Translations under genes and position numbers: made by a program | The notes under the pieces: generated by a model | What the model saw: the letters and a program-made list of their open reading frames with translations, nothing else | Database searches by the model: none | Told to the model about the DNA's origin: nothing | Shown here: positions 82 through 36,100 of the stretch, piece after piece | Numbering within the stretch: the stretch's first letter is position 1 | Layout: every line of letters starts with the position of its first letter | DNA from: Antedon mediterranea | Taxonomy: Eukaryota; Animalia; Echinodermata | DNA length: 64,000 nucleotides | Assembly: GCF_964355755.1 (NCBI RefSeq) | Contig: NC_092671.1 | Span: 19,530,001-19,594,000 of the forward strand | Reading direction: 5' to 3'

Positions 82-195
82 CTAACAATCAATATCGTCA
101 GACTGTGTAATGGCATTCAAGTCTTTCATGAGTCCTTCAAGATTCAACATTTCAGCATTCAAATCTTCTGTGCTAAATGTTCTTGCTGTCCCCGA
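82..195 (-). CDS. NEO1/DCC: Terminal coding exon with P3 motif (SGTARTFSTEDLNAEMLNLEGLMKDLNAITQSDDIDC*)
   Basis: ctgttttag acceptor, TAG stop at 84-82; diagnostic LEGLMKDLNAIT. Confidence 0.95.
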   Translation of the reverse strand, partial: SGTARTFSTEDLNAEMLNLEGLMKDLNAITQSDDIDC

Positions 196-12100: not shown

Positions 12101-15100
12101 AAAGATGTTGATGAGCTTAAGGATCAAAGACTGTAAGAAAGATGTTGATGAGCTTAGAATCAAAGACCAACATTAAAGATGTTGATGAGCTTAAGGATCA
12201 AAGAACAACATTAAAGATGTTGATGAGCTTAGGAACAAAGGCCAACATGCAAGATGTTGATGAGCTTAGAATCAAAGACCAACATGAAAGTATTGATGAG
12301 CTTAGGAATCAAAGAACAACATGAAATATGTTGATGAGCTTAGGAATCAAAGACCAACATGAAAGATTTTGATGAGCTTAGAATCAAATACCAACATTAA
12401 AGATGTTGATGAGCTTAAGGATCATAGAACTGTATGAAAGATGTTGATAAGCTTGGATTCTAAGACCAACATTAAAGATGTTGATGAGCTTAGGAGTCAA
12501 AGACCAACAAGAAAGATTTTGATGAGCTTAGGAATCAAAGACCAACATTAAAGATGTTGATGAGCTTAAGGATCAAAGAACTGTGCGAAAGATATTGATG
12601 AGCTTAGGAATCAAAAACCAACATGAAAGATGATGATCAGCTTAGGAATCACAGACCAACATGAAAATGTCGATGAGTTAGGAATCAAAGACCAACATGA
12701 GCGATGTTGATGAGCATAGGAATTACAGACCAGTATGAAGATGTTGATGAGCTTAGTAACAAAGGCCAACATGAAAGATAATATAGGATCAGGTGGCCAT
12801 ATTGCTGAGGCAGGCTCACATACTTTTATTATTATTATTAAGTCACTTGCCCTTGACGAACTGTTTATTGTGAGCGTTTACCCCTGTACAAGCAAGACCA
12901 TGATTTAAGCAAGAGGCTTGCGTGCATGTTAATCCTACCTGAGCTTAATGTGGCTTGATCACTTGTAACACTGCTAGGTTTACTGCATTTAATACCTCCA
13001 TTTAGCAGCATACCACTGTAAGCAGACTCCAGTGCACCTGGTTAGGATATATTATTAGTTACCCATTTTTATCTAATTCACCCCTTAATATATATTTCTG
13101 TACCTCAGTGCAAATTATAATTCCAGTAATATTCCCATAATAATATTGTAAAATAATTTGTGCAGTTAGACAAATTCAATATTCACCACATTTTAAACCT
13201 AAACCTTTTAACTTATAATATATAAATTATGGTATGAAACAGAGTTGAATACTAATAATATGATCATATGTTAAAAGTGATCATGACTTTAACAGCCAAA
13301 TAAATTAAGAACTCATATTAAATGTCTCCCTCATACAATTTGTAAAAAAGCTATTTTTAACAAGCACTTGTTTTAATCTTAACATTTAAATTGTGAAACA
13401 AATCCTAAACTGTATCTCTAGGGAAAGTTTTATGATACATTTGAAAATGATAAGTCATCATATTTAATAGGAAATTTCCTATTAAAGTTATCATTAGTTT
13501 TCTAACATGCACAATGAAATCTACTAGAACAAAAATACATAGTTAACAAGAACTAGTAGGCTAACCTATCAACGAACAATATGCATGCAAGGACACATAA
13601 AACAATTGTACAAATCTTTGTTTTTACATGGTATAGTACTGTTCAAAGACATTTTTGGTTGTATACGTCAATGACTCAACTGAGCGTTTACCAGTGAAGC
13701 AAGCAGATCATATTTGACAACATTTTTAGTAAGGTGAATAAACTTGAAAGTAAATTTGATAGGATAACCAGGGACTCCGTGGTATATACCGATAACAGCA
13801 ACAAATATAATGCTAATACTATAGTGGTTGCAAAAGATCATGGCCACATTTGTATAAAAGTAAAAATTCAAATTGTTTACGTTATCTTCAGTTTGTCTAT
13901 ATTCTACCTGAACAGTACTATACACATTCTATTTTTAGAATGTTCGTAAAATACAAATACTGTTACAGTACCTTTAAAAATAGTGAAACAAATGATTGTG
14001 AAAAAAAAAGGGTCAAATATTTATATTTGACTTACCTTTAGTTTCAGATGCTATAAATGCAGATTCATCAATTTCTGATAGAAGAATTGAAGAAAAAAAT
14101 AATGTTGGATTTAGTTTATGATTACCTGAATAGAAGGTATTTAATAAATGAGCTGTATTTTACGATTATGATAGAGGATTGATAGAATGCTTTGATCTCC
14201 CGCAAAAGCACTTGAATATAACAAAACTTTAATTTCATATTTATTTGTAATATATCACGTTCATTTTACTGCGGATATTCTAAAAGCAAAAAAGTTTAAT
14301 TTATCGTCTTTGAAAAAAGTAATTTATATTCATTGTATACAATGGTCATTCAAAAAGTATTTTACATACAAGCTACAAATTGCAATATGTTCCTGTGAGG
14401 CTGAATAAGGGTTGTTTCTTTTTGGAAGTACTCAATTTTACAGGATTACAGGCAAAGTGTTAAAACATATACACACTAGAACCCCTCCTTTGGGACACTC
14501 CTATTAAGGAAATACTGTGAAATAAACGAGGAACAATATATGTTTTAACACTGTGGCCAACCACTATTTAGGGGAGACACCTAGGGGACACTTTTTTGGC
14601 ACCCAAAAGGTGTCCTTAATAGGGGTTATACTGTACTCATTCATTTCATAGGAAAGTGTCACCTTAAGGGTATCCCAAGAGATCTCATCTAATACATCTC
14701 TTTTAAATTAAAATTGTATTGAGTGTCCAGATCAAGTTTTGTTACAGTTCTGCTCAATTTTAAATAATTCATTTTTCAGTTCACATTGGTAAAATAATAT
14801 CTATATCTAATCATTATTAGTGACATTGCAATCAACTATGACATTAAAATACATACATCTATATTATAATAACATACTAACCCAGAATGTTTTACTCTAT
14901 CTCCTCTTAAACCACATCAACAAAATGTGCATATAGTTTGAGGTAAGACACCTTTTTATTTTCCTTTAGGTATTCAGTTTTTCAAAATATGAATGTTTCA
15001 CAATCAGGTTACAGAGAGGTCTACTAGTTAACTATAGAATGTTGACTTAAATTTTAGTATTACCTGTATCACCTCGTAATGGCAACATTTCTCCTAGAGG

Positions 15101-18100
15101 CTTGTTGCGGATGTTGAAGACAACGTCTGGACCATCACCTCCATTCGGCGGCTTATTGTACCTAATAAACAAAAATGTCATCAAAGTTTAAAAAACAAAT
15201 ATTGGCAATCATTGGCGAAGATACATAATTTATCAAAAATGTGTGTGTAATTTTGTAAGTAGGATTTTTTTTTCAGCATGCAGAAGGAATCTTGTTATCA
15301 TAACATTAGCCTTTTGTATCATAAATATACTGAATACTGAATTGCTTTATTTGTCAATATCATAATAAAATATAAAAATTCTAGATTGGCAAAAAATAAC
15401 TACTGTATATAAGTTTATATACATTCCTATTCACCATGAAAGTTCCATACAGTAAAACCCCTATGTTTGAATACCACTCATTATGGGGATATGTTATGAG
15501 TAGGTAGGTGTTTGGATACCACTCATTATGGGGATATGTTATGAGTAGGTAGGTGTTTGGATACCACTCATTATGGGGATATGTTATGAGTAGGTAGGTG
15601 TTTGGATACCACTCATTATGGGGATATGTTATGAGTAGGTAGGTGTTTGGATACCACTCATTATGGGGATATGTTATGAGTAGGTAGTGTTTGGATACCA
15701 CTCATTATGGGGATATGTTATGAGTAGGTAGTGTTTGGATACCACTCATTATGGGGATATGTTATGAGTAGGTAGGTGTTTGGATACCACTCATTATGGG
15801 GATATGTTATGAGTAGGTGGTGTTTGGATACCACTCATTATGGGGATATGTTATGAGTAGGTAGGTGTTTGGATACCACTCATTATGGGGATATGTTATG
15901 AGTAGGTAGGTGTTTGGATACCACTCATTATGGGGATATGTTATGAGTAGGTAGGTGTTTGGATACCACTCATTATGGGGATATGTTATGAGTAGGTGGT
16001 GTTTGGATACCACTCATTATGGGGATATGTTATGAGTAGGTAGTGTTTGGATACCACTCATTATGGGGATATGTTATGAGTAGGTAGGTGTTTGGATACC
16101 ACTCATATGGGGATATGTTATGAGTAGGTAGGTGTTTGGATACCACTCATTATGGGGATATGTTATGAGTAGGTGGTGTTTGGATACCACTCATTATGGG
16201 GATATGTTATGAGTAGGTAGGTGTTTGGATACCACTCATTATGGGGATATGTTATGAGTAGGTAGGTGTTTGGATACCACTCATTATGGGGATATGTTAT
16301 GAGTAGGTAGGTGTTTGGATACCACTCATTATGGGGATATGTTATGAGTAGGTAGGTGTTTGGATACCACTCATTATGGGGATATGTTATGAGTAGGTAG
16401 GTGTTTGGATACCACTCATTATGGGGATATGTTATGAGTAGGTAGGTGTTTGGATACCACTCATTATGGGGATATGTTATGAGTAGGTAGGTGTTTTAAG
16501 TATTTACAGTTGGTCTTGACGGTGTCCTATTTATATGGGCTCTACTGTCCCTGAAATCAAGCATTTGATAATTGTAAAATGTATTTCAAAAGCTCTGTCT
16601 ACGCTATCAAACTTTATGTGACAAAAAAATGTGATGTGCACATATATGGACACGATGTTGTCATTTCACTACCATATTTGGGCATATCACTACCATATTT
16701 GGGCATATCCCTGCCATATTTGGGCACATCATACTATTTTTGTCAAACTAGTTTGATGGTGTAGACAGAGCTCAAAATACTGCTGGTGCATAAAAGGGTA
16801 TTGGAAACTTTGTTATGTCATTGTAATTTCTAAATAGGGATTTAAGATACATGGTTTTACTTACATAACTTTTGTCATTCCTTTATCTTCTACAAAACAA
16901 CAACATGGACAACAAGCAGCCCAGCAAGATCGACATCCTGCGCCGCATGCTGCAAAGCACGGGCACAGATCAGCACAACACACGCAGCATCCACATGCAA
17001 TGCAGAGTATTAGGAGAATTGCCAATAGCAATATCAGGAAGGCTATGCCAATAATTAAGAACCATAACCAGCGTGGAATTGTTGCTTCTTCTACAATAGG
17101 CAATAAAGTTGCTTTGATAGCTACGGTCTCAGCTAAAAAATTGTAATAAAAAAAAAAAAAAATATGACATCCAGATTACCTGATTGCAATTAAATAAAAG
17201 ATTAGGTTACTATTACAATCAAATGTGAAGGCCACATAAATATAAAATTGATAGAATATACCTTAACTTAATTTTACTTGTTTGCTACCGATGAAACAAA
17301 AACTCACATATGCATGTATGTTATTATTTTTAGTAAATGTACTTCCTGATCTATCTTGTGCTATTTATTAAATAGAGGTGCTATTTATTAAATAGAGGTG
17401 GTAAGGTAATTTTTTAGAATAATGATCTTTAAACAAATTAAATAATACTTACCTCCAGTACCTGTTGATGGAATTGTTGTTTGTTTGTTAGTTGAAACAA
17501 ATATAACATCAGTCTTAGACGGCACATAGCAAGCTTAAAAAAAACCCAAATGAATTGCACAAAATATTATTAAATACAAAAAAAAAAAAAAAATAATGTT
17601 TGCATTAAAAATACATTTGTTATTTCATAATATAAAAACTCTTGTGATTAGAAATAGAAATGTTTAAAAAAGGGAGGTTTTACTAAAATGATTAATTCAC
17701 GTTAAAAAAAAGACAATTTTTTTATACCAAATGTCAGGCTATATTTATATTTGCTGTATTTGATTTATTATCAACAGCAGCAAGATATTTGTACTGAATC
17801 AATTTTAATTTACTTTAACTTTCATCTGGATTTTTTTTTCAGACTAAGCGAAAGAAAGGTAGGCCCGGACTGATTAACGTTATATTTCTTTTGTTATTGA
17901 TTTTTGGTGGAGTTGGTAGCGGTTGAGGTACATTGGATGAACTTGAATTTATCATATGAATCAGGTAGGTGAAAAGCAATGTTTTCAATATTTTTTTTAA
18001 AACAAAAAAATTTAAATGATTTAAAACATTTTAAATTACAAACCTGGGGTTGTTTCACTAATCTCAAGAGACAGTGGACCATCTCCTTTCCTATTTTCTG

Positions 18101-21100
18101 CTAGAATCATAAAGTAGTACTGAGTATTGCAGTCCAATCCACGGATTGAGGTGGTAATCTCATTGCCATCAACAGACATTTTTGTCCACCGACTTAGCCG
18201 TAATTCATTATTAGTAGAATAGTACACTTTATAGCCTAAAAAAATATACACTCACATATTTAATATGTTGTAAGCTTGAATCATGTCATGTAGGAAAGTG
18301 CTCGATGCTGAGCAAAGCAGAATAAAGATAAATAGTCAAAGACGCTAGTTACATAACTAGCGTCTTTGACTATATTTATAAGTATATACATATTTATATA
18401 TTAGTTTAATTTTTTTCTTCAAGCAGCTCGTCAATTACAGAATGGATAAACTATTTTATAATTATTTTATTTTTTTATTTTATTGTGCTTATAGTCTTAT
18501 TTGAGGCTTTTAAAGTGGAGTTGAAAGAGTCATAAGCTACAACCCTGGCACAGGTCAGGATTGAAACCATGGCCATTCACACATTACAGTATATTTATTA
18601 TGGCTAAACCTAAGCCTGGTTTTGTTTCCAAAGTTGGTGGTGTTTGAAAAAAAAGGTAAACATCAAAGTATTTTCTTTATTTAAATATACTTTGAACAAT
18701 ACATTATTTGGTTTTCTATCCAATTTTGGGTCAAAGTGAATGATTAATATGACATTAAAGTTACCTACAGTAAAGGAAAACAATGAAAAACAGTACCTGT
18801 TATATAGCCATTAGGTTCTGTAGGAGGCATCCAATTGAGGTAAACTATTGACGATGAATTGGCATCAAGCACAACTTTGATGTCTGTAGGCGGTGACGTT
18901 GGTACTAAAATAAAGAGCAAAAGTGATACCAACAGCCTTGTAGTAGAACCATATTATGCAATGGACTATCTACTTCAACACCATTTTAACATTAATACTT
19001 ATACAGCGCATATTTCTATAAGCTCAGCGGCACTTCACTTACTCTCATAACATTGAACACTACTACTGTATATTTGATAAACAGTGGTGGTTTCTGGATA
19101 GAAATTTACATTTTTAATATATTCTTGTGTGGATAGTAGATTTGATAGTGGATTTGTTCATAAACACTTAAAGTTAAACTAACACTGGTTGTTTTGTGAT
19201 GTGTGGTGTGTATATGTATTACAACAAACCTTTTAGTGTAATTTTATGAATATTTAGTCGATTTAATCTTGAATGAATTTACTTATAAGAAGGTTAAGGC
19301 ACATACTCAATATTGATTAATTAATTGAACTAGTTTAATAAATTGTTTTATCACCATTACAATTACTTTGCTATAGTAACACTTTAATGAATTAATATCA
19401 TTCACGCTGATTTCACATTAGCAACCATGCTATTACACTGTGCTTTAACAGTCACCTCAAATTATTTAACAGATAAACTGGTCTAGTTTGCCAACTTATC
19501 AAATTTAGTAAGTCAAATAATGTATCAACACATAAACTGAGAACCAATCATTTAGAACACTTGTCAATAATGTGAATTTTAACAGATAAATAATGCTAAT
19601 GCAATTCAATTTCCATTAAAACTTAAATTTTGAATATCTCAAGTTACATATAATACATCTGGCCTATATAAATGTTTTAACATCAATCAAACTTTAGGAC
19701 TTCTCAAAATGAGTCATAAAGCAACATTTAGGACTGGCTAACCTCAGCGACAACTAACCCCTTTTGAATATGTGTATTCGTCAGCAGGGGTGGCGCCAGG
19801 ATCTTCCCGACGCGGGGGCTACATTCCCCAACGAGGGGGCTATGCGAGCATCACAAGGCTGGGTGCCAGGGGGCCGCCAAGGGCCACCGGTGGGGGTCCA
19901 GGGGGCGAAGCCCCCGGAAGCAACGCGTTCTAGCGTCATTTGAGGTCATTTTAATCAGATTTAGGGTAGCCATTTTTTCCATTTTTTATAATGCATAATG
20001 CTCCCAAGTGTATGCCTGCGTACCATCTGGACTTCCGGGTGGTGAGAAATTCATGACATACACAGGACATTGAAAATGTAATAACTTAGCTATAATAAGA
20101 TGTTGGCTAAGCGAAAATGGCATGTTTTTTTGTTTAGTAATGGATGAAATATTTATTTTAGGTGCCCCACGGTACAGAAGGTTACTTGTAAATTAAAAAA
20201 TTGGTGAACATACGAACAATTAACATAATTCGTTTTTGCTGTAGTGTATAGCGTACGTCGACACAGTACACGACGTAACCGTCGGTAAACTTCGCCTGGA
20301 AAATAACTACAGTACACATTTTGGTCCCTGGATGGAACTTGATATCACGCGTCTCGACCCAACGTTGAACGATTCGTACAAAGAGATACCGCCAGACAAG
20401 TGCGTACCTAGCTAATGTTTAGTAGTAAGTTAGATCGCTGGCAATAATGAATGCATATAAATTGCATAATAGCACTCTGACGTACTCTCAATGTCAATGA
20501 AACGTCGCGGTTTTCTAGGCGCTGAAGCTACCAAGTGAACGCGAACGTTTTTTACTGTATATTATATTCCCCGACAAAAAGTACCCGTGTTCCCTTCGGT
20601 AACCGTCGGTAAACTTCGCCTGGAAAATAACTACATTACACATGTTGGTCCCTGGATGGAACATGATATCACGCGTCTCGACCCAACGGTGAACGATTCG
20701 TACAAAGGGATACCGCCAAACAAGTGCGTACTAGCTATTGTTTAGTAGTTAGATCTCTGGCAATAATGAATGCATAAAAGTGCATAATAGCCCTCTGACG
20801 TACTCTCACGGTCAATGGAACGTCGTGGTTTTCTAGGCGCTGAAGCTATATGAAGTGAACGCGAACGTTTTTTACTGTATATTATATTCCCCGACAAAAA
20901 GTACCCGTGTTCCCCGACGGAGGGGCTAGGCTCCCCGACGAGGGGGCTAGAGCCCCCGTAGCGCCCCCCGCTGGCGCCACCACTGTTCGTCAGCAGTTAT
21001 TTGACATTAAACGAGAATCAATAATGCTCCAACTTATCGTAAAACATATTCCAATCTTAAAAAATAAAAGGGTGGGCTTATGTTATTCTTGCGTGACATG

Positions 21101-24100
21101 AAGATGCTGTATAGAAATCTAGGAACATACAGTTTACCTAGCTGCACCAGTCAGTCGAAAATCATATAAAAAAAAAAGTCCAGTTTATGGAATACTGTAT
21201 TGGTTTGGCTGTTACTACTTCATAGAAGAACTTTTTATTAAAAGAGAAGAATTTACAAGTACAATAAACGTTTTTAGAGCCTAAAGAATAATTATACCCA
21301 TGATGAGTTTATGTCTAACTTTAACATTTCTACTTATTTAATTTTTTTTTCCAATTCGTATTTTACATCAAAAAAACCTCCTAATTTTACTTTAGATTTA
21401 AAATATAATTTCTTAGTCTTTCTGTTATGAAACATAGCTAACTGTGCCAATTGAGGAAATCATTTTCATTATTTGTCCTAGAAGTTTAAAAAAAATAAAT
21501 ATTACAGTTATTACAAAATAGACTACAAATCTTATACGTCGATATAAGACAGTAGGATATTTTAATAATTTCATGTCAAATATTGTAAAATTTATAGTGT
21601 CGTACATGTAGTCCCCTCCTCACACACAATTTGATTTACAATACAATTGGCACCAAAAGAAGCAGCTTGTTAAATAAATTTGGTTACCAATCGTAGTTTG
21701 CCAAAGCTGTAGTTGTCCTAAGGGGTAGTTGTAGGCCTACATGGGGCAGTTTTCCTAGGGGGTAGTTGTCCTAGTAGGTAGCTAGAGGGTAGTTGTCCTA
21801 GGGGGTAATTGTCCTAGGGAGCAGTTGTCCTAGGGGTTAGTTGTCCTAGAGGGTAGTTGTCTTTAGGGGGTAATTGCCCTAGCGGGTAGTTGTCCTAAGA
21901 GGGTAGTTGACCCCTGGCTAACATCAGTCATAGAAGACCCTTTAGGATTTTCTAACATGAGTCTTATAGAGCAACATTTAGGACTGGCTAACCTCAGCCT
22001 CCTGTGCTAACATCAGTCATAGAACACCCGTTTAGGATTTTACATATGCAAATACAGTATTCATCTTATGGTTTGTATTTTTTCTATTCTTCTACCAGAT
22101 GATTTAGTTACCAGAAATATAGGATTGGTAAGTACTACAAAGAAAGTGTAATGTAATGAAATGAAGCTAGATAGAATGAATGTACACTGTCACTCACCTT
22201 CCACAAACAAATGACATCAATTAATTTGTATGTACATTAGAAACTGACTTACATGCATCTTTGGTCTTGGCTGAAGTCTCTATACTAAATTCACTTGATA
22301 TCCTGCCATCACTTGCTTTCACATCGAATATATATGTAGTGAATGGTTTAAGATTAACAACTTGTTGAGAAAAGGATGATGTATTAATGAACATGTAACT
22401 AATAAAAGAAAACAAATGACAAATATCAAAATATGAATATCAAATATTAATGATGGCAATTATGAACATTTAATGATGATGATCACAATAATAGAAATGA
22501 CAAAAATAATGAGACGATGAAGGTAATGAGAATGCTTTGATGAAGGAGATAACAATGATGATATGATGAAAGTGATGACTATGATGATACGATGAAGGTG
22601 TAACAATAAGGATACAATGAAAGTGATGACAATGATGATACAATCAAGGTGATAACAATGATGATACAATAAAGGTATTGAAAATGATTATACGATGAAG
22701 GTGTAACAATGAGGATACAATGAAGGTGATGAAAAATATGATATGATGAAGGTGATGACAATGATGAAGATAATGACAATAATATGATGAAGGTGATGAC
22801 AATGATGAGATGATGAAGGTGATGACAATGATGAGGTGACGAAGGTGATGACAATGATGTGATGAAGGTGATGACAATGATATGATAAAGGTGATATAAT
22901 GTTGATACGATGAAGGTGATGACAATGATGATACAATAAAGGTGAGGATAATGATGATATGAAAGGTGATGACAATGATATGATAAAGGTGATGACAATG
23001 ATACGATGAAGGTGATAAAATGTTGATACGATGAAGATGATGACAATGATGATACGATGAAGGGGATGACAATGAGGATATGATGAAGGTAATAACAATG
23101 ATACAATAAAGGTGATGACATGACGAAGTTGATGACAATGATGATATGATAAATGGGATGACAATGATGATACAATGAAGGTGATGACAATGATGATATG
23201 ATGAAGTTGATTATAATGATGATACAATGAATTGAATGACAATGATATGATAAAGGTGTCAACAATGATGATACAATAAAGGTGATGACAATGATGATAA
23301 AATGAAGGTGATGACAATGAAGATACAATGAAGGTGATGACAATGATGATACAATGAAGGTGAAGACAGTGATGGTATGATTAAAGTGATGACAATGATG
23401 ATACAATGAAGGTGATGACATTAATGTTGATGTTTATTGTATAACTGTTATAGTTTTCAAATGTTGTTTATTCTTATTTTAACCTGACCATTCAAAACAT
23501 GCGCAAGTCCTGCAATTGGTAGCCAAGGATCTTAGGTTACAACTATATAACCCCACTCTATGCCATTGAACATGACCATTTGAAAACAGAAAGATATTAT
23601 CATACTTACCGTGAAGATGAGAAGTTTGCTTTATATCTGAGTGTGTACTTGTAGCTACTTTCACCATTCCATTTCACCATTATAATTGAATCTGAAATTG
23701 CTTGAGCCTCTACTTTTAGTGGAGGGGTCAATATAGGCGTATCTGTTGCTATAGTTACAGAATAATCATGATAAACGTTATTATCACATAAATTATACAA
23801 ATATCTAGTCAAGTTCTTTAGTATGGTATTTAAATTTGTGTGACAATATAAATAAATTTCATAAATCAATGTTTAAACAATGAAGTTAGAATCTAAATTT
23901 GTAATTGTTTTTGTTTCGCTCTACTATAATTACATGTAATTTATTAGAATGAAATAAATTAGTTATTAACATGCAGTTTACAAAAAAGGTTTATTATCAT
24001 TAAATGATATATAAAATAAGCAATGGCCTACTGGATGTAAAAACCCAAGTTGAAAAGTATGTAAAATCTTGATGTAAACATAATATAATACCAAACAAAA

Positions 24101-27100
24101 TAATGATAAAGCAATTTGAAATTACAACTGAAATTAATGCATTGTTTGGTAATGTGGTTTAGGTTAAATAAAATTGGGGGCAGCAAGTATTTTTAAAAGA
24201 ATAGAATACTGTATTCTGTCATTGATGTTTTTTGATATGCTGTAGAATGGTGAAGAAATATAAAAGACATAAATAGAATATTATTGGATACAATTTACAC
24301 ATACATGACAAACAATGATTTAAAATTGAAATAAGAAGAGACAAAACAACAAAATACAGTTACAATTACCTTACTTATCTAATACTGTAATATCAACAGA
24401 ATAAGCCAGTTAAAATAAGTAATAGAATCTAATATGTTGAAGGAAATATTGATTGAATGTCAACCCTCAGTATTATTGTTAGAACACCTGAAAATACCTG
24501 AAAATACTAATAACTAAAATTCCTAAAACTAGATTAAATACACAGATATACCTTGCTAAATTAATCTATTTTTCACACACAATAATCTTTAGGCAAGAGA
24601 ATAAAGGATTGTTGGCCGTTGAAAGTGTTAGCTTTTACTATATTTGCTTACTTATTGGAATCATGGGCAAACTCCAAGAGCATGTTTCTACTGAAAACTC
24701 CAAAAAGAGCAGGTTCCTTTTGAAAATCTGGTTCTGGTAGTAATGATGATCACTTTGCAGCTTAATTTTTAATTTTTAATAAAACAAAACGGATTGTCTC
24801 AGTGGTACCTTAATGGATGTTATAGTACCCATAAACACTGGAAGTGAAACCGAGTTAGGTAATGGTGTGTTGTGATCATGTGAATGTTTGAAACGGTAGC
24901 ATCCTGATGTTGCAGGGCCGGTGGAACGAGTTTGAAATATATAAATGTTTTTTTGGGAGTGTGTAATGTTTTTAATTAATCTACTCTCCACCAAAGCGCA
25001 ACCATGGTTTGGACTAAAATGAGAACATTTTAGGAATAGTAGACATGTAAATGACCTAAAATCGTACTTATTAAAAGTATTCCGACTGGTTGGGATAAAA
25101 TTGATAATTAAAAATAAGCATGCGGCACGCACTATGGTTGGGGCTGGGGTGTGTAAATTTTAGGAATATGGACATGTAAATGCTTTTTGGGAGTGTACCA
25201 TTAATTGTTTTAACCTAATCTATTTCCACCTCAGTCCCAACCATGGTTGGGGCCATCTGAATGAACACAGATTGGTGACGCTTAAAAAAGAATAATCATT
25301 TTTAATGTTGACGCATTAATTTTCAGCTGCCAGGGAAACTAACTAAATTTAACAATATTGTTGATTTACTCAGAAAATTACATTCCTAATATGGCGATTT
25401 AGGCTACCTTTCTTATTCTCAGGTCAGAAAAAATGTCTCTACTTTACCCTTTATATTTTCTAATATTTGTTTTCTTATCTTAAAAAAAATGTCCTTGTTT
25501 CTGCCAGCGTTGTGTTGGGTGTTTAATTTTACTTGGTCACTGAAAAATGCTAAATAATAATAACACTCTACCAGAAAAAAGGCTAATAGCATCTATTTGT
25601 GGTGGCATATACAATATGTATACGCCGTTGTAAGCCTATAGTATTCCAAATGAACAAAACTTATCTTATGACAAAGTAAAATATCAATATTCAACGTAGT
25701 ACAGTAAGACATGCAGTTCTAAAATCTAGGGATTTTGGTGTAAAAGATATAAAAAATGAATAAATACTAATAAAAGTGCACGTTTTGAAAAGTAAAATAA
25801 AAATTGAAAATGATTATTTAGTATTAAATGATTGGTGAACATTTAACTAAAACATGTTGTCAAACCTTCTAAAAAAATTTATTAAAAAAATAAAAAAAAT
25901 TGGGAAAGGTGCCTATAATCCATGCGTTAACGAAGAGAATGTGACAAAAACATGCGTCCTAGGGATATTTGGATGTGTATTTTAATAAAGATCAGAATTG
26001 TTACAGTTTCAATAAGTTAAAAAAATGTTTTTAAGAAATGATTTATATAATTGGGTTTCCTTTAATTTTATAAATGAAAGGGTTTTATGGGTAACTACAA
26101 ATATTTAAATACAGTAGAACACTTCCTGTGAGACATTTATATCTAGGGGACACTTTGTTGGGTCCTGAAGGACGTGTCACTTGCTGTGAGACATTTATAT
26201 CTAGGGGACACTTTGTTGGGTCCTGAAGGACGTGTCCCATTAATAAGGGTTCTACTGTAGGCTTAATAATAACACTAAAACAATCTAATCTACACAAATA
26301 AAAAATCTTCATCTATAATAATCAATAATAAAAAGTGTAAAATAAAGAACTTGAGCTAAAAAATGCATTAAAAAAATAAATAAAAAGAATTTCTCTAGGT
26401 TCAACATTTCAAGGCGTGCATTTTTGTTTCTGAGCTAGGCATTAAACAAGTATGCCGTAAACATTTACTCCATGCCCATTCTGATGAAAATGACTCACGT
26501 TTATTTGGAACACCACAATCTACAGTTCTGGATACAAGACAAGCTTCAGGTCTATTACAATCCTCCTCTGTTTTTGTCCACGAACCACGCGAGCCTGCAA
26601 CCTCCTTTCCTTTCGCATCGAAACACCAACAGTCATTTTGGTCATAGCATTGTAGAGCTTTAAAATCTCCATTGTCGCAGCAACGTGGAAAGAAGGTGGC
26701 ATTTTTGGGAAGGGACTGGAGCCAATTGTAACACATACAAGCTGATGAGAAGATACAGGAACAAGGAAAAGATAAAAACCACAATTGACTATGAAAAGCA
26801 TGTGAATGCTGCAAATCTCAGAGCCAAGAGATATGACAAGCAAGTTAGGAAATCCAAGCGGGACAGAGCTGTCGGATAAGTTCACACCAGTTATAGAACT
26901 ATGGATGAGGCAAAGCTATGGAAAAGAGTGATGGGATGATGTGCTGAACCTATTATAGCCCAATGGCTTGTACCATATTAGCTAAAATGTGCAAGATTAA
27001 GGGAGGTTATTAAAGATTATGTGCTCAAACAAGGAAAAATAAGTTATTAAAAACAAACCACCGCACTTAGTGTGTGTTAGAAACCAGAAAGAAAATTAAT

Positions 27101-30100
27101 TAAAAGAAATAGTAGATATAAAAACATCTTATCTAATATCAGCATTAAAAATCAAGAGTTACTTAAGATACTAAATGAATAAAAATAAAATTATTTATAG
27201 CTACTACCGATTTATTTAGATTTGTAACTAAAAGTTTCTTATTCAGAAAAACAAAAATAATCCTGAATGAACTAAATAATTAATACAAACACACTTTCGC
27301 AATGCTAACTAAACTACAAGCCTATTATAATATACACGTTACTCACGACAACATCACTATACAAATCACAAATAAATTAAAACAAAACAGATAAATCCAT
27401 ATAACACAAACAAGAGAATTAATGTTCCAATGAAGATAATAGTAAACAAAATATAATAATGTTCAACAGACTCCTCAAAACAATGAATAGTAAGGAATAA
27501 ACAAAAACAGGTAATACTTGGCAACATGCCAACCGGTCTTACATGTATCTGCAATGTCACTCGATTCTTGGACCCCAGAGGTACTGACTGTTGCTAAGCA
27601 ACAAGAAAGAAGACAATATTACTGTAAGCTGTTTAGCTTCCAAAGAAACACAAATGAATAAAAAATAATTTCTTCACCAAATAGTTAATTTCCATTCATA
27701 TATGTGATTAAAACCACAAGGATAGGAAGCATCTCATTGGCAGGATTTCAATCCATTTTGTTGATCTCAGCAAAAAGATTAGGATCTTAAAGTGCTTTGT
27801 TAAAATAATACAGGATTGAAAAATTAAATAGGTTTATGTCATCAAATGCACTGCTCTTTTTTTTAGACACATTCCAAAATTTAGACAATTAAAAACATTA
27901 AACAAATTGTCACAGAAACACTACTAACACATTGAAAAATATCATTCAAAAAACATTCAAAATAAATAATAAATACTCATAAACAAATATATAGAACATC
28001 TAAGAAAAATAAGTATTCAAATTCTACAGGTTACTTTCAACATGTATAACAGATACATACACACAGAATATTAAGTCCATCAACATTAGAAAGCCAGTCA
28101 CAGTCAGGCACATGAGTTGGAGGTCAGAATCCAGAGATAGGAGGAGAAATTGTTGATGATAGTAATGATGGAAATGTCTTAATATGAGGATGAAGAGGGT
28201 GAGCTGAGGGTGAGCTGAGGGTGGTAGGCAAGGGCTAAAGATGCAATTCAAACTTAAGGTGAAACAAATATGGACTGAAAATTATAACATTATATCTTAA
28301 AAATAGAAATCAATTAATTTTTAATTAACAAAAGGCATTTAAATGATAATGTGCAGTTCATAAATTAAAAAGTGTCAAAAATTATAAAACTTTTAATTAA
28401 AAATTAAGGTTTGGGTAGATATAAAAAAATGCAATTAAAAATATTTTTTTGGTAAATTAGAATAGTATAGTATAAATAAATAAAAATTGTATTGTATTTA
28501 TTAAGCATGCTTGTAATTATGTTAATTTAATTATTAATAAAGTTAGGAAAAATATTGAAATTGCTTGATTTAACCTAACATTTAGCAGAAATTAAGAAAA
28601 AACAATATCTAATGTACAATTTGATTTATGTCAGTTGTAAAATGTATATGAGGTAACTAAAACCTGATAAAACTGTGTGTTCATTTAAAATACTTGTTTA
28701 CTAAATTATTGTGTGAAAATTTAATATTAAAATCTGTGACATACAAAACAAGTATTACATTATTTAAACAATTTAAATTTTGCTTTGTGATGTGGTAAGT
28801 TCCTTTAAACTATTATTACTTGATGTATCAATTTAAATACATTCAATTAAGCATTAAAGAGAGAAGAAAGAATTAAATATATTAAATTCTTCATAATAAG
28901 TATATAATAAAAACATATATTACAACTGATATTGGCTTAAACATGCAAAACATGCTAGTATGACAGTATAAAGATAATAATGCAACATGCTAAACATGCA
29001 AGATATGCATTGAATGTAGTCACAAGAGAATCCATGCTTTCTTAATAAACCATTTGGATGCTAATAATTACACATGAATAAAAACCAATTGAATTTTGAA
29101 GCACAGACAAAGCAAGTATAACGTACAATAAAGCTTTTAGTTTACATTTACACACTCTTTTATAAATAAAGTTATATAACAAGCTGTGAATAAGTTTGGG
29201 TAGCTGGGTAGTGTGAATAGGCCTACTTTTGTTTCAATGTGTTAATCATGCACAATGATATGGAAAATAAAACTTGCAGTAGCCAGACTAATTCAATTTT
29301 TAAACGTATTTTTTTATTAGTTTGACAAAGATATAAGACAATTATTTTGTTTTAAATTTGTTTGAATATCCAATCTAAATTAATATATATTCAAAGTTGG
29401 TTTTAAAAAACGAGTTATTATATGTCAGCAGGAAAGACATTTGATAAGGTAAAACAATTGTTTAAAATTTTTCACATAATTGTAAAATATTGTATCAAAA
29501 TATTAATAAAATTAAACTAATTTTATAAAGTTTATGCATAATCTAGTTCTATAGCAACAATGCAATAACCATCAGCAACAAATTGTAAGGAAACCACTTT
29601 GATCAATTTAGTAATAATTAATAGTAGTAAATACCAATGGAAATCTAATAAAATCAAGCTTTAAATTCTCTGTCAGTAGTATTTTTTCATAATGTTTTTC
29701 AAAATAAATTAAATCAAAAACATGATTTATGATAGTTTAAAATAGATTGTTCAACTTATCAAACTTTAAATGGTATTCAAGCTATATAAAATGTAAATTA
29801 AATTTATTATTATTCAACCATTAAAAAAAGATTATAGTAACATTATATTCATAAAGCAAGTATATTTTCTAATACAGTAATAAATATTTCATATTAATGA
29901 TTTTAACTAAAATTTGAATGTTTAAAATCAACCCTTGAATTGATTTTTTGTAATTAATTAAACCATTTTATGATTACATGCAAAAAAACATGCAAAAGCT
30001 ATAGTGTGTCAATAAATAAAACTTAGGTATAACCTTTGACATACTGGCAACATTTAAAAACTCCAAGATGCAGTGGATAATGAATGAGAACTAGATCCGA

Positions 30101-33100
30101 CTATTAGCAACAAAATACAAAAGTAGCACATGCGATGGACAATGCACAACTAGAACATGCGAAAAAGAGATGACGTACGTGCAATGACATAACATGCACA
30201 TCATTATCAAACCAACGAATAATACATGCGAATGCATACATTACGTTGACACTTACTTGACTCAAAAAGCCGGTCAACTATCTCATACTTTGATTTTCCT
30301 TCACCAGCTTTATTGACTGCCCGTAGTTTGATTATGTACTGAGTTGCCGGCTCTAGATTTTCAATTATAAAATGCCGCCTATCTGCACCAAGTCTCTCTA
30401 TAACAACATCAGGAATTCGTGGACCGAACCCTAGTATATAACCGTCTACTTTGATGCTTTTGTCTAATGGGGGCGACCACCATACCTCAATACGATTTGG
30501 ATATTTATAGCATACTAGTGAACTCGGTTCAGGGGGAACACGAGACTCTACAGTGCAGTTGTGTGAACGATAGTAGAAAATGAAAAAAGGAGAACAAAAC
30601 ATTATGTTAGTAGTTAGAAAAGATTAGTGCAAAAATGTATTATTAAAGAATGATATTATAACAAACACATTGTAACCTACGACATTTGTACTCTTGAAAA
30701 AAAGTTATATATGTTCCTTACGGTATTATTATTTTGTTATTTAAAAGGACATACAAATACATTTAGAATAAAACAGAACAAAATTTAACAGTGTTTTCAT
30801 TATACAAGGTAGAGAAATAGTGTACATTCATTAAAAGCTTATAATCTTTATCTATAAAAGATGGTATCCTATTTGTCTGTAATGATGTCAATAATTGCAA
30901 TATGGACAGAGCAAATGATCATAATAAATAATTTAGATTTAAATTGTATTAGTTTTGCAAACATATCTTGATATATTTGAATATGCAACCAATCTATTAT
31001 TAATATTCCTAACACCTCTCATCTTAGGTCATGAGTTATACCCATATATAGCAACTTATCTCATTCAAACATCATGATTATAATTTATAATTTATAAAGC
31101 AACATGTTTCGAAGATTGAATATTTAAAATTTGAATGATATTGAACAAGTTGAAATATTTAACCTAAAGCCCATGTGAAATAAAGACGTGATGCTATGCA
31201 TAGGTGATGCAAATGGAAAACCCTTAGCAAGTATAAGCACTTGTGTAGAGCTTACAAGAAGCAATTCAGAATATGATGAGTGAATATTATGAACGATGTT
31301 TAAGCACTGGGAAAATTAATATAAATTTAAGAAAGAAATAGTAAATTACATTTTCCTTCATAATAAATATATTGTTTTATAAATATATTAAATTATTTAT
31401 TTACCGATTGTATACATTTAAATAAATTTAAAAAAAAGATAATTTAATTAAAAATGAATATGTATGTTATTTAGCATTTATTTAATTCGTTCATTTCAAT
31501 CATACTATATTTGAATAGAAAATTAGTATAATTTGTTATATATTTATGACATAAAACCACTTTTAAATGTGACTATAACTAAAAAATATGATATATAATG
31601 TGTAAATACCTCCACCAATGAAGTTACATTTTTTTTCTGGGATATTTATTATTACTAATTTGTATAGCTAAAGAAACAGCTCAGAAAATATTTGGAAAAT
31701 AAATAATGATAACAATGAGAGAATCTAAGTAATAAATTTGTCTAAACCAAAATTGGTCAACAATATTTTATTTACACTTTGTGTAGTTAAATATTGTAAA
31801 TAGTAGGCTAATGTTTTATATTGGTACTCACCATCAGGGGCATCAGTTACCACATTGGTAGGTAATGTTCTACCAGTAACCCAATTGGACCATGGGCCTG
31901 TCCCATTATTGTTCACTGCTAGTATTTTTACTTCATATTCAGTGTCATCATCCAAGTCTATGGAAATTAAAAACTTTGTAATATAGTGAAAATATAGAAA
32001 TTTACACCTTCTTTAGGACACCTTTTAATAATAATACGGTCTTATATAGCGCTAATGCACAAAGTTTCTAAGCGCTTCACATTATTACCACAGTCATTTT
32101 TGGATCAAACATAACTCAACAAACATACTCCCATAATGTTGCAGCCAGTAATCAGAAACTAACGGGGAAATAATGTTTTAACACTACAGCCTACTCTCGC
32201 AATACTTCGTCGTGAGCGGTTGTGTTTACTCGGACCTCTCTCTAGGCCTCAAAAGTACCCGAGCAGTCTAGGCTATACCGGGGCAAACAGAATTTTTAAC
32301 CACTTCGCATTGGTGGCTCAGGGGCACTCCCTAAGCCTAAGTAAAACAACGAAACCAATTGGTGGATTAATGGCCTTTTAATTGCGTTTTTCTCTTCGCA
32401 TCGTAGTACTTCAACTACACAACGAAGCCATTTGGTGGATAATCAACGCTTTATTAGTCTACGGTTTCAGCAAGGTAAGCGTATTTGACTTCTCACACCT
32501 GAAACCAGGAAAAAATGTACATAACCAAAGATTAACATTTTTCGACGAAGCCTTTTGGTGGATAACTTTTCTGTTATTTTATCGGATGAATCGTTTTTTG
32601 ATGTTTCTATTTTCACTTTTAACATTAACTGTATCGGTATTTTATATACCATTGGGTTGCTGAATTCTTGGAATTCCATTTGATTGAATTGTGGATACGC
32701 TTACAATTGTATTTTGTAACGTGGACGGATACAGACGAGCTCAACACGAGCTATTTTTCGAGCAACGCGATCTTTTTGCTGGTCAGATACGGCATACAGA
32801 TAACCTTCCAATATGACTTTTAGTATGGCTTCCTTTATTATCCATGCATCAGTGCTTGTTCTTTTGATTAACAATGTGAAGCATTTTCAACTTGTTGACC
32901 AATTTTTTAACGCAACCGCCGAAGAGAGATACGACATATCAGCCATTTTTACCAGGTGCAAACATTCCAACGCTAACTTTGCGGTCGCTGCAACAAGTGT
33001 CATTTTTGTATCGCCTGCCTATATTTACAGTTCCGGAAATTATCAAACAAGGAAGAATACGTCCCACATACACCGGACTTTTGATCTTAGAGGGAAAGGC

Positions 33101-36100
33101 TTACTCTTTGCTATCTTGCTTAAATGTGGTGATATTTCTCCAAACCTGGGACCCGGAATCCATCTCAATGTGGAGGAAGACTTCAATGTTTTTAAAGAAA
33201 AGGGCCTTCACTTCATTCATCTTAACGTAAGGTCAATACTGCCAAAGATGTCTGAACTCCGCCTACTCGCAATAAAAACCAATGCAGCCGTTATCTCTAT
33301 ATGTGAAACTATATTGGATAATACTGTTCCTGATGCGGAGCTCAACATTGAAGGATACAACGTTTTCCGTCGAGATCGAAATCGGTCTGGAGGAGGTGTT
33401 TGTTTTTTTGTCAAGGAAAGACTATCTATACGCGAACGCCGGGACCTGGATTCTGAAAGTATTGAATCAATTTGGATGGAAATTTTGCTTCCGAGGACGC
33501 GTCCTATTGTTGTTGGATCAATTTATCGTCCACCAAGTCAATCATATAAGCTATTTATTGACTCGTTTGAAAATATATTGGCTGCTATTCGACCAGATGT
33601 CGAAGTTATTGTCCTTGGTGACTTCAATATTAATTTGAAAAATGAATCTGCATCAATATACAAAATGTTAGAAACAACTCTTGAAACTTTTAGCTTTACC
33701 CATCTGATAAAGGAACCAACTCGAATTACTAAGTATACATCAACAGTTTTAGATATTATCATATGTAACCATTCGCAAAAGATTTTGCAATCGGGTGTCA
33801 TCCATGTAGGCATTAGTGACCACAGCCTAACGTTTTGTACTCGTAAATCTTTAAAATATAAATTTAACCAACATAAAACTATCAAAATTCGTTCACTTAA
33901 GAACTACGATGTTAATATTTTTAATGAGCAATTGACACAATCTGATTGGTCGCCTGTTCTCGATTCATCAGATGTGGACTTTGCCTGGTGCTCTTTAAAA
34001 AAAATATTTTTGTCTCTTATAAACAGAATGGCTCCTCTCAAACAGGTGCGCCTAAAACAAAAATCTGAAGAGTGGATGACACCGGAAATATTAAGTGCCA
34101 TAAAAGAAAGAGACTCGATATTAAATAAGTTCAAGAATAACCCAAATAGGCCAGACCTTTACGATGCATTTCGTAAGTTACGTAATCGCATACAAAAGGA
34201 CATAAAGAAAGCAAAATCTGAATGTTTTTTAAATAAGGTAGAAGTTAACAAAAATAATCCCAATAAACTCTGGAAATGCCTTAAAGATTTGGGATATAAA
34301 AATAAGCCACAAAAGGGTAGCACTGTTTCGTTAGATGTTAATGGGAATCTTTGCCATAATGAAAGCGAAGTTTCAAATTATTTCAATAAATACTTCGCAA
34401 ATATTGCTTCCGATATAATGAAGAAATTGCCTTCTCCCAGTAACCTTTTTAGTGTGGGTTCGAATGCCTTTAAAAATTACTATAATAGCAAAATCAAACA
34501 TGTTTCTGGTTTTTCTCTCGAAGAAATTGACGAGAGCCTTATCGAAGAGGAATTGAGAAATCTCAACCCATCTAAAAGTGTAGGCCTTGATCAGATTCCT
34601 GCAAAATTTCTTAGAGACGGAGCTCCTAATATTAAAACACCAATAACACATATAATTAACCTCTCCATTAAATACGAACGTATTCCCTCGGATTTTAAAC
34701 TCGCAAAAGTCACGCCCCTTCATAAAAAGAATTCCAGAACTGAGGCTAACAATTACAGACCTATAAGCATTCTCTCCTCAGTTTCGAAAATTCTGGAGAA
34801 GGTGGTATATATACAAGTTTCCGATTACCTTGAAAGGAATCAACTTATCTACGATCATCAATCCGGTTTTCGTAGATCATTTTCTACCGACACATGTCTT
34901 ATCCATCTTAGAGATCACCTTAGAGTTCAAATGTCAAATGGTTTATTTACGGGTATGGTTTTACTCGATGTCCAAAAGGCCTTTGACTCGGTCAATCATG
35001 ATATTTTGTGTAAAAAACTTAAGTATCTAGGATGCCGGTCTATCGGTTGGTTTCAAGCGTACCTGTCTGGGCGAAATCAGATTGTCGATATTAAAGGTAC
35101 CAAATCAAACTCTATTGAGATTGGATGTGGAGTCCCCCAGGGTAGCCTTTTGGGTCCTCTCTTGTTTCTTATTTACGTGAATGACCTACCATCTAGTATC
35201 GAAAGTGATTGTAAAGTTGTTTTGTACGCTGACGATTGTGCAATTTTTTACTCCCATAAAGATCCAATCGCAATCCAATCTAAACTCCAAAACAATCTCG
35301 TATCATGCAATAATTGGCTGATCGACAATCAACTTTCGCTTCATATGGGTAAGACCGAATGCATCCTGTTTGGTTCTAAACGTAGATTAAGCAAAGTAAA
35401 CGAATTCTATATTGATTGCTTTGGAACGACTATAAATGGATCAAAATCTATCAAATATCTAGGTATTGAGATTGACCAAAATGTATCAGGTGACGTCATT
35501 GCCCGCTCTGTTATAAACAAAGCAAACGGCAGACTGAAATTTCTGTACCGACAATCATCATTTCTTAATTCACATTGTCGCAAAATTCTTAGTTTTGCTT
35601 TAATCCAACCGATGTTCGATTATTCGGTTTGCTCATGGTCTTCTACGGTAAATAAAAATTTAAAATCAAAATTACAAACGACTCAAAACAAAATGGTTCG
35701 TTTTATAAAAAAGTTAGGTCCCCGATCTCATGTTGGTCAATCTCAGCTAAACGACGTTGGTATGTTAAAAGTCCAAGACCGTGTCGAATTTCTTAGAGCC
35801 TGTCATGTTTTAAAAATATATAATCATTGTTGTCCACCTTATTTATGCAATCGTTTTATTAGAATTTCAGACAGTCATAATTACAATACTAGGGGATGCA
35901 ATTTTAATTTTAGAATCCCAACTATCAAGCCAATGGCACATGTGACCTTTTTTTACAATGCTATTAAAGAATGGAATAATTTACCAATTAACATTAAGGA
36001 ATCACAAACTGTTTGTTGTTTTAAAAGTAAAGTTAAAAAGTATCTACAGGAACGTTCACTAGCTCTAGAAACTATTTAATTTGCGCTTCTTCTTTTTTCG

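What the first reader, a model, noticed from the sequence alone, without database searches (positions are those of the whole stretch)
26499..26741. Thyroglobulin type-1 domain cassette exon inside the netrin-binding FN4-FN5 linker of a DCC/Neogenin receptor
Seen: on the gene's sense strand, between the FN4 exon (donor at 30257, phase 1) and the FN5 exon (acceptor at 23748, phase 1), lies a 243-nt stop-free exon. It has a long pyrimidine tract plus CAG acceptor and a GTGAGT donor, and is phase 1-1. It encodes CMCYNWLQSLPKNATFFPRCCDNGDFKALQCYDQNDCWCFDAKGKEVAGSRGSWTKTEEDCNRPEACLVSRTVDCGVPNK. This has the six-Cys Tg1 core (C...FxPxC..G.F...QC....CWC....GxE..GxR...C) plus four extra Cys, an even total of 10. 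Known: DCC/Neo/Fra/UNC-40 ectodomains are 4 Ig + 6 FN3; FN4 and FN5 bind separate sites on netrin and linker length changes complex architecture; Tg1 domains can inhibit cysteine cathepsins (thyropins) or bind IGF and heparin. Inference: exon shuffling placed a splice-optional folded domain between the two netrin sites, which could change netrin cross-linking or add protease or growth-factor binding. I know of no DCC-family member with this architecture.
Basis: partly seen in the sequence, partly recalled or inferred. Interest (0 to 1): 0.92.

Follow-up and report, generated by a model that had tools for sequence, protein, structure and literature searches.

The report
Feather-star netrin receptor gains thyroglobulin module
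In feather stars the DCC/neogenin receptor gene carries an extra spliced exon encoding a thyroglobulin-type domain between the two domains that bind netrin in vertebrates, which likely lets splicing re-space or replace a ligand-binding site in a receptor whose outer part is otherwise built alike across animals.

Summary
Real. The 243-nt exon (26741-26499, minus strand, phase 1-1) encodes a thyroglobulin type-1 (Tg1) domain (Pfam 46.8 bits, cut-off 20.6) inside a DCC/neogenin gene. A contig from a probable RNA run joins it to the FN5 exon over a GT-AG intron. The peptide is identical to RefSeq Antedon mediterranea neogenin-like and 66/80 identical to the Anneissia japonica orthologue, with all ten cysteines kept. 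It is missing from 116 of 116 non-crinoid DCC/neogenin sequences tested, so it looks like a crinoid gain. Annotated Antedon isoforms show four forms: FN4-Tg1-FN5 (8 of 11), FN4-17 aa-FN5, FN4-FN5, and Tg1 replacing FN4. FN4 skipping is also annotated in sea urchin, sea stars and brittle star. Best reading (0.55): a splice switch that changes netrin cross-linking and probably adds a binding surface. Cathepsin inhibition is less likely, because the loops differ from known inhibitors. The exon is already in automatic annotation, but my literature searches found no description of it. Function is untested.

The parts
26499..26741 (-). Tg1 cassette exon, 243 nt, phase 1-1, 80 residues plus a split codon, 10 Cys
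   Evidence: joined to FN5 in a contig of X1; in 9 of 11 Antedon and 7 of 7 Anneissia isoform sequences
26742..26781 (-). Polypyrimidine tract and CAG acceptor of the Tg1 exon
   Evidence: 81% pyrimidine
23749..26498 (-). Intron between Tg1 and FN5, 2750 nt, GT..AG, beginning GTGAGT
   Evidence: skipped exactly by X1 contig 1
27543..27593 (-). 51-nt alternative linker exon (17 residues), phase 1-1
   Evidence: exact in RefSeq Antedon X5; never together with Tg1 in 11 isoforms
30257..30547 (-). FN4 exon, 291 nt, phase 1-1, itself skippable
   Evidence: best PDB matches are NEO1 and DCC FN4; skipped in Antedon X7
31832..31957 (-). Second FN3 exon; its donor is used with either the FN4 or the Tg1 acceptor
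   Evidence: the same 15-letter loose end at 30548 and 26742 maps only to 31833-31847; RefSeq X7
23610..23748 (-). First FN5 exon
22253..22398 (-). Second FN5 exon
18797..18904 (-). First FN6 exon
18044..18235 (-). Second FN6 exon
16865..17132 (-). Transmembrane exon followed by a cysteine string
85..195 (-). Last coding exon with the P3-like end of the DCC family
   Evidence: (PF06583)
82..49820 (-). Host gene, DCC/neogenin orthologue, from Ig2 to the stop; residues 1-132 (signal peptide, Ig1) have no match in the window
   Evidence: tblastn of RefSeq Antedon X1 on the window

Best explanation
This is a crinoid exon that adds a thyroglobulin type-1 domain to the DCC/neogenin receptor between FN4 and FN5, and it likely works as a splice switch that re-spaces, or takes the place of, a netrin-binding site. 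Shown: the exon, its splicing to FN5, its conservation in two crinoids, and four annotated forms in Antedon (FN4-FN5, FN4-17 aa-FN5, FN4-Tg1-FN5, and FN3-Tg1-FN5 without FN4). Predicted: a folded core of about 60 residues and a loose tail of about 20, with no fixed orientation to FN4 or FN5. Inferred: it came in by phase 1-1 exon shuffling into a slot that was already alternatively spliced. With FN4 present it would act like an extreme long linker and change how netrin cross-links receptors. With FN4 skipped the receptor would lose the main netrin site and show the Tg1 surface there instead. The strong conservation suggests that the domain also binds something, which is unknown.
For: Junction Tg1-FN5 in X1 and not in X2 or X3. 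Four exon combinations each match a RefSeq isoform exactly. Tg1 is 66/80 identical between Antedon and Anneissia against 193/293 for FN4-6 (Fisher p 0.004; 0.02 without cysteines). 0 of 116 non-crinoid sequences have it. Other echinoderms carry optional peptides of 12-16 residues in the same slot, and FN4-less isoforms are annotated in 4 other species from 3 classes. Model of the domain: residues 1-50 at pLDDT 88-93, 51-60 at 79, tail 55-59. FN4 and FN5 fold well on either side, with pTM 0.40. In vertebrates FN4 is the high-affinity and FN5 the lower-affinity netrin site, on two different receptor molecules (PMC8063088). Netrin binding there depends on linker length, not on linker sequence (PMC5563286), and the long and short DCC forms differ in function (PMC4930329).
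Against: No netrin binding was tested for any crinoid protein. Crinoid FN5 lacks a 9-residue stretch present in NEO1, and FN5 and FN6 are the least conserved ectodomain domains between the two crinoids (66% and 56%), so the vertebrate binding mode may not hold. A mere spacer would not need to be more conserved than its neighbours, which favours a binding role of its own. In Anneissia no skipping is annotated (7 of 7 include the exon). The FN3-Tg1 join has only 16 letters on one side in X1, below the tool's bar of 31, and the RefSeq model may rest on the same run. X1 is RNA by guess only. Isoform counts are annotation counts, not expression levels. Absence outside crinoids was tested on annotated proteins, not on introns.
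Confidence: 0.55

Rival explanations
1. The Tg1 domain mainly gives the receptor a new partner (a second ligand, a matrix component, a co-receptor or itself), and any change in netrin geometry is secondary.
For: It is as conserved as Ig2-4 (66/80 against 251/290, p 0.37) and more than FN2-6. Residues 55-68 are identical in both species. Tg1 domains serve IGF binding in IGFBPs and cis-dimer formation in EpCAM (PMC7349879 passages).
Against: No partner is known. The exon sits exactly in the slot where other echinoderms and vertebrates splice linker length. The net charge is about zero (10 K/R, 11 D/E), which gives no sign of a basic heparin patch.
Confidence: 0.22
2. The domain is a tethered thyropin that inhibits cysteine cathepsins at the cell surface and protects the receptor or its ligand complex, as the Tg1 inserts of saxiphilin inhibit them.
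For: Short helix and short loops, as inhibitors need (PMC7349879). The best TM-score by target length is to the p41 fragment (0.71, rmsd 2.6 over 60 columns). 7 of the 14 differences between the two crinoids fall at positions 17, 33-34 and 45-54, the predicted wedge loops, which could reflect adaptation to proteases.
Against: Loop 1 carries an N-glycosylation sequon at residue 13 in both species; 15 of 586 comparison domains have one there. It has Ala where 370 of 586 have Gly. Loop 2 is five residues and acidic, whereas saxiphilin has the six-residue Gly-Ser loop that lies over the active-site cysteine. Many Tg1 domains do not inhibit.
Confidence: 0.13
3. A tolerated passenger: a Tg1 exon landed in a permissive phase-1 intron and is kept only because it must fold.
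For: The slot is the most variable part of the ectodomain across animals. Cysteine-rich domains look conserved through structural constraint.
Against: Identity stays at 56/70 without cysteines, above FN4-6. It is kept in two genera and in most annotated isoforms.
Confidence: 0.08
4. Artefact: a nested gene, a repeat-borne fragment or a mis-annotation that is not part of the receptor.
For: None found, except that X1 is RNA by guess and RefSeq models are automatic.
Against: Direct GT-AG join to the FN5 exon. One copy in the window. A single contig runs through it in X2 and in X3, unlike the small repeat at about 26104-26236. Same position in a second genus.
Confidence: 0.02

Closest known systems
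Vertebrate DCC long/short and neogenin linker isoforms
   Same: Alternative splicing in the FN4-FN5 linker. The crinoid FN4-FN5 form is collinear with the NEO1 FN4-6 crystal construct, and the 17-residue exon resembles the 20-residue DCC insert (PMC4930329 passages).
   Different: The crinoid insert is an 81-residue folded, cysteine-rich domain, not an unstructured peptide, and one form drops FN4 altogether. A review states that all DCC homologs have 4 Ig and 6 FN3 domains (PMC10084454 section 8).
Saxiphilin (two Tg1 repeats inserted in a transferrin)
   Same: A Tg1 module inserted into an unrelated scaffold as an independent protrusion (PMC6584486 section 7); sequence match E 4e-11.
   Different: Saxiphilin is secreted, has two repeats and inhibits cathepsins. 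Here there is one repeat with four extra cysteines and different loops, in a membrane receptor.
p41 invariant chain (CD74 p41)
   Same: One Tg1 domain in a membrane protein; closest fold by target TM-score. That p41 arises from an optional exon is recalled, not from a call.
   Different: p41 is a proven cathepsin L inhibitor; the crinoid domain is untested and has a loop-1 sequon and extra cysteines.
EpCAM/Trop2
   Same: Non-inhibitory Tg1 domain inside a cell-surface ectodomain.
   Different: Long protruding loop and dimer role there; weaker match here (E 0.007).
RefSeq neogenin-like of Antedon mediterranea (XP_071942906-917) and Anneissia japonica (XP_033096448-459)
   Same: The first is identical to the window's gene over the tested exons; both hold PF00086.
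   Different: Automatic models named neogenin-like; nothing found in print on the insert.

Membership tests
DCC/Neogenin/Frazzled/UNC-40 | Four Ig domains | tested here: met
   4 Ig_3 stretches in the identical RefSeq protein; Ig2-4 map to the window, Ig1 does not; best PDB match DCC Ig1-4, E 2e-59
DCC/Neogenin/Frazzled/UNC-40 | Six FN3 domains | tested here: met
   6 fn3 stretches; FN4-6 match NEO1, E 1e-53; five in the FN4-less isoform X7
DCC/Neogenin/Frazzled/UNC-40 | Single transmembrane helix | tested here: met
   hydrophobic stretch after FN6 and the stalk
DCC/Neogenin/Frazzled/UNC-40 | Neogenin C-terminus with P3 motif | tested here: met
   PF06583 78.9 bits, cut-off 25; P3-like pattern in 18 of 18 crinoid sequences
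DCC/Neogenin/Frazzled/UNC-40 | P1 motif | tested here: inconclusive
   a strict pattern finds it in 0 of 18 crinoid, 52 of 90 other echinoderm and 26 of 26 outgroup sequences; it may be diverged rather than lost
DCC/Neogenin/Frazzled/UNC-40 | Ectodomain made only of 4 Ig and 6 FN3 | tested here: not met
   16 of 18 crinoid isoform sequences hold the Tg1 domain; met by Antedon X5 and X6, so the gene is an orthologue with variant isoforms
DCC/Neogenin/Frazzled/UNC-40 | Binds netrin through FN4 and FN5 | not testable with these tools
   no crinoid netrin was held and no assay is possible
Thyroglobulin type-1 domain (type 1A) | Pfam PF00086 above the curated cut-off | tested here: met
   46.8 bits against 20.6
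Thyroglobulin type-1 domain (type 1A) | Six core cysteines | tested here: met
   C20, C31, C37, C39 and C61 invariant in 21 aligned domains; the first core Cys is C1 or C3
Thyroglobulin type-1 domain (type 1A) | CWCV signature | tested here: inconclusive
   CWC is present but followed by F; 519 of 586 comparison domains have V
Thyroglobulin type-1 domain (type 1A) | N-terminal helix plus two-stranded sheet | tested here: met
   predicted H2-9, E29-32, E36-40; top Foldseek matches are thyroglobulin, p41 and saxiphilin
Thyroglobulin type-1 domain (type 1A) | Disulfides I-II, III-IV, V-VI | not testable with these tools
   model coordinates are not returned
Thyropins (MEROPS I31) | Short helix and short loops | tested here: met
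   criterion from PMC7349879
Thyropins (MEROPS I31) | Loop 1 and loop 2 like those of saxiphilin | tested here: not met
   sequon and Ala in loop 1; five-residue acidic loop 2. This is a likeness test, not a strict rule
Thyropins (MEROPS I31) | Inhibits cysteine cathepsins | not testable with these tools
   needs an assay

The most novel reading that the evidence does not exclude
Echinoderms splice out the high-affinity netrin domain FN4 as a shared ancient switch, and crinoids built on it a domain swap: Tg1 takes the place of FN4, turning the netrin receptor into one with a new ligand or protease partner. That would be a change of ligand specificity by exon choice in a receptor family described as having a fixed ectodomain.
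Probability: 0.3. Interest if true: 0.82.

Novelty: new variant of a known kind. Interest (0 to 1): 0.64.

Why it matters
The FN4-FN5 linker sets how netrin cross-links DCC and neogenin, and vertebrates tune it with inserts of 16-20 residues. Crinoids put a whole folded domain there and can also drop FN4. This is a natural test of how far the two netrin sites can be separated and what a receptor without FN4 does. It can be tested in vitro with crinoid fragments or by grafting the exon into mouse DCC. It also dates an exon-shuffling event to the crinoid line. The annotated FN4-less isoforms across four echinoderm classes were not found in print either.

Tried and rejected
No whole genome is held, so genome-wide copy number and a donor locus in this genome were not tested. 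Run search: no RNA holder on record was listed; this says nothing on expression. Only 3 of the 5 listed runs were laid, on 23550-31000. No second laying was obtained, so the six unaligned letters at the end of the FN4 contig were not read. They fit the six letters shared by the starts of the 51-nt and FN5 exons, which is inference only. The FN4-Tg1 join was not seen in X1 contigs; contigs show presence, not absence, so this join rests on RefSeq models alone. Contig depth arithmetic hinted at similar levels of the FN4 and FN4-less forms but cannot rank isoforms and is not used. Donor search: a profile of the two crinoid domains gave 484 hits at E up to 0.001, the best 150 were listed. Apart from the Antedon protein itself (183 bits) the best single domain scored 44 bits, and 0 of 586 cores had the extra Cys after the second core Cys; no donor was identified, and the 334 weaker hits were not seen. 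dN/dS was not possible without Anneissia DNA; one synonymous difference in the exon was seen in X1. Disulfide pairing could not be read. The idea that the single Cys in crinoid FN4 pairs with Tg1 was dropped: it aligns with a Val of DCC and NEO1, probably buried. In the three-domain model the Tg1 part had only two aligned sequences and was partly mis-folded, so only the FN confidence and the low pTM are used. The ESM Atlas gave only generic Tg1 clusters. No complex prediction was run because no crinoid netrin or cathepsin was held. The first exon table had several boundaries off by one or two bases; one search corrects those from FN2 to FN6. Xu et al. 2014 was not read; it is known here only through passages of other papers. 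Earlier scan findings: none returned.

Full report
Observation. The minus strand holds a 243-nt exon at 26741-26499, with a CAG acceptor after an 81% pyrimidine tract and a GTGAGT donor. Pfam assigns PF00086 at 46.8 bits, E 2e-12, cut-off 20.6. PDB sequence matches are thyroglobulin, saxiphilin, p41 and EpCAM/Trop2, 14 distinct sequences in all. The exon occurs once in the window.

Host gene. The peptide found 2 proteins among 8 candidates: Antedon mediterranea neogenin-like (100%) and Anneissia japonica neogenin-like (85% by BLASTP). The Antedon protein maps exon by exon to the window from residue 133 to the end; residues 1-132 lie outside. It has 4 Ig, 6 FN3, a membrane helix and Neogenin_C. 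The exon upstream matches DCC and NEO1 FN4 best, and FN4-6 is collinear with NEO1. So this is the crinoid DCC/neogenin orthologue, and the insert lies between FN4 and FN5.

Splicing. Three of five listed runs were laid. X1, RNA by guess, has a 1315-nt contig that joins 26499 to 23748 across a 2750-nt GT..AG intron, with 139 letters on the shorter side; X2 and X3 do not show it. X1 also has the same 15 loose letters at the starts of both the FN4 exon and the Tg1 exon, and they map only to the end of the FN3 exon at 31833-31847. That points to a join from FN3 straight to Tg1; with 16 letters on one side it is weak alone. The RefSeq isoforms agree. Of 11 Antedon sequences, 8 are FN4-Tg1-FN5, 1 is FN4-51nt-FN5 (X5), 1 is FN4-FN5 (X6), 1 is FN3-Tg1-FN5 without FN4 (X7), and 0 have both the 51-nt exon and Tg1. 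Each of the four forms, spliced from window exons, matches its isoform exactly from FN2 to FN6. All 7 of 7 Anneissia sequences are FN4-Tg1-FN5. These are counts of automatic models, not levels, and they may rest in part on the same run as X1. The FN4-Tg1 join was not seen in X1 contigs and rests on the models.

Distribution. A search with the FN3-FN5 region gave 14 hits among 1047 candidates, and one with the C-terminus gave 20 among 137; in both only the two crinoid clusters list PF00086. A fresh Pfam scan of 13 orthologues found it in 0 of 13. After listing 96 of the 132 members of ten clusters, a profile of the crinoid domain hit 0 of 116 non-crinoid sequences and 16 of 18 crinoid ones. The 116 comprise 90 sequences from 11 species of sea urchins, sea cucumbers, sea stars and a brittle star, and 26 from hemichordates, Lingula, a wasp, frogs and one unnamed source. 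These are annotated proteins; introns were not searched. The simplest reading is a gain on the crinoid line. Sea urchins, sea stars and the brittle star show optional peptides of 12-16 residues in the same slot. Isoforms lacking all of FN4 are annotated in Strongylocentrotus, Patiria, Acanthaster and Amphiura (5 sequences), in 0 of 16 sea cucumber sequences and in 0 of 26 outgroup sequences. The region was thus probably a splicing hot spot before the Tg1 exon arrived.

Conservation. Between the two crinoids Tg1 is 66/80 identical, against FN4 75/98, FN5 63/96, FN6 55/99 and Ig2-4 251/290. The excess over FN4-6 holds with (p 0.004) and without cysteines (p 0.02). All ten cysteines and the sequon at residue 13 are kept.

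Structure. With 21 aligned domains AlphaFold gives mean pLDDT 80.5: a helix at 2-9, a hairpin at 29-40, 88-93 over residues 1-50, 79 for 51-60 and 55-59 for the last 20. Foldseek returns thyroglobulin, p41 (TM 0.71 by target length, rmsd 2.6) and saxiphilin first. A model of FN4-Tg1-FN5 folds both FN domains at about 90 or above but has pTM 0.40, so no fixed arrangement is predicted; its Tg1 part was poorly supported. The variant is unusual: 0 of 586 comparison cores have the extra cysteine beside the second core cysteine, and no donor protein was found.

Mechanism. From papers: netrin bridges FN4 of one receptor (high affinity, LN domain) and FN5 of another (lower affinity, LE3) (PMC8063088: passages and the first part of section 9). 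Binding depends on linker length, about 19 residues in a cell assay, and not on linker sequence (PMC5563286: first third of the text). DCC long and short differ by 20 residues and in function (PMC4930329: passages; bioRxiv 10.64898/2025.12.11.693717: abstract only). Inference: the crinoid gene makes a short form, a long form, a form spaced by a folded domain plus a loose tail of about 20 residues, and a form in which Tg1 stands where FN4 was. These would differ in netrin-driven clustering, and the last would lack the main netrin site. I put this at 0.55. A new binding partner as the main role gets 0.22, cathepsin inhibition 0.13, a passenger 0.08 and an artefact 0.02. Inhibition is marked down because loop 1 has a conserved sequon and lacks the usual glycine, and loop 2 is short and acidic, unlike saxiphilin (loop roles from PMC6584486 section 7, and PMC10889554 passages). 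Against my reading: crinoid FN5 lacks a 9-residue stretch of NEO1 and changes fast, and no netrin binding has been shown for this protein.

Novelty. A review says all DCC homologs have 4 Ig and 6 FN3 domains (PMC10084454: passages and section 8). Full-text searches found nothing on this insert: thyroglobulin + neogenin + crinoid gave 1 paper, seen as a listing only, on echinoderm cell types; thyroglobulin type + DCC + netrin + domain gave 0; crinoid + neogenin + netrin gave 0; Antedon + neogenin gave 0; echinoderm + DCC + neogenin + netrin + isoform gave 2, one being that review. One search aimed at FN4 deletion gave 2 listings that appear unrelated. The library lacks most subscription journals, and no supplements were read. 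The architecture is in RefSeq as unremarked automatic models. Verdict: a real, conserved, lineage-restricted domain insertion at the known control point of a well-studied receptor; a new variant of a known kind, interest 0.64.

Noticed in passing
window 30257-30547 and orthologues: Isoforms lacking the whole FN4 domain are annotated in Antedon (X7), Strongylocentrotus (X4), Patiria (X16), Acanthaster (X15) and Amphiura (X10, X11), and in none of 26 outgroup sequences. This may be an echinoderm-wide way to remove the main netrin site.
   Followed up: partly
window about 16890-17005: A cysteine string (16-17 Cys in 45 residues) follows the membrane helix. It is present in all ten echinoderm proteins shown and absent from hemichordates, Lingula and frog. 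It is likely a palmitoylation cluster; untested.
   Followed up: partly
window 47742-48553: Ig3 lacks both canonical Ig cysteines in crinoids and in the nine other echinoderm proteins aligned, while hemichordates and Lingula keep them.
   Followed up: partly
cytoplasmic exons, window 82-15166: A strict P1-like pattern is missing from 18 of 18 crinoid sequences but found in 52 of 90 other echinoderm and 26 of 26 outgroup sequences. The tail is long, about 680 residues in Antedon X1.
   Followed up: no
window 30007-30256 and 40857-41106: Four GCATG motifs lie within 250 nt downstream of the FN4 exon and four upstream of the exon at 40856; 1.6% of 250-nt windows reach four. They resemble RBFOX sites (recalled); the test was made after seeing them.
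   Followed up: partly
window about 26104-26236: A short repeated element in the Tg1-FN5 intron draws many contigs and loose ends in all three runs; similar text occurs near 48335. It is not part of the exon.
   Followed up: no
window about 32000-36000 and 55300-56900: Two intronic stretches look by eye like decayed LINE-type retroelements; not scanned.
   Followed up: no
window about 15480-16500, 22500-23420 and 11800-12800: Long intronic tandem or low-complexity arrays, one with a unit of about 45 nt.
   Followed up: no
window 7988-8170 and about 10809-10883: Two stretches match the Anneissia X1 cytoplasmic tail but not Antedon X1, so they are probably further alternative cytoplasmic exons.
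   Followed up: no
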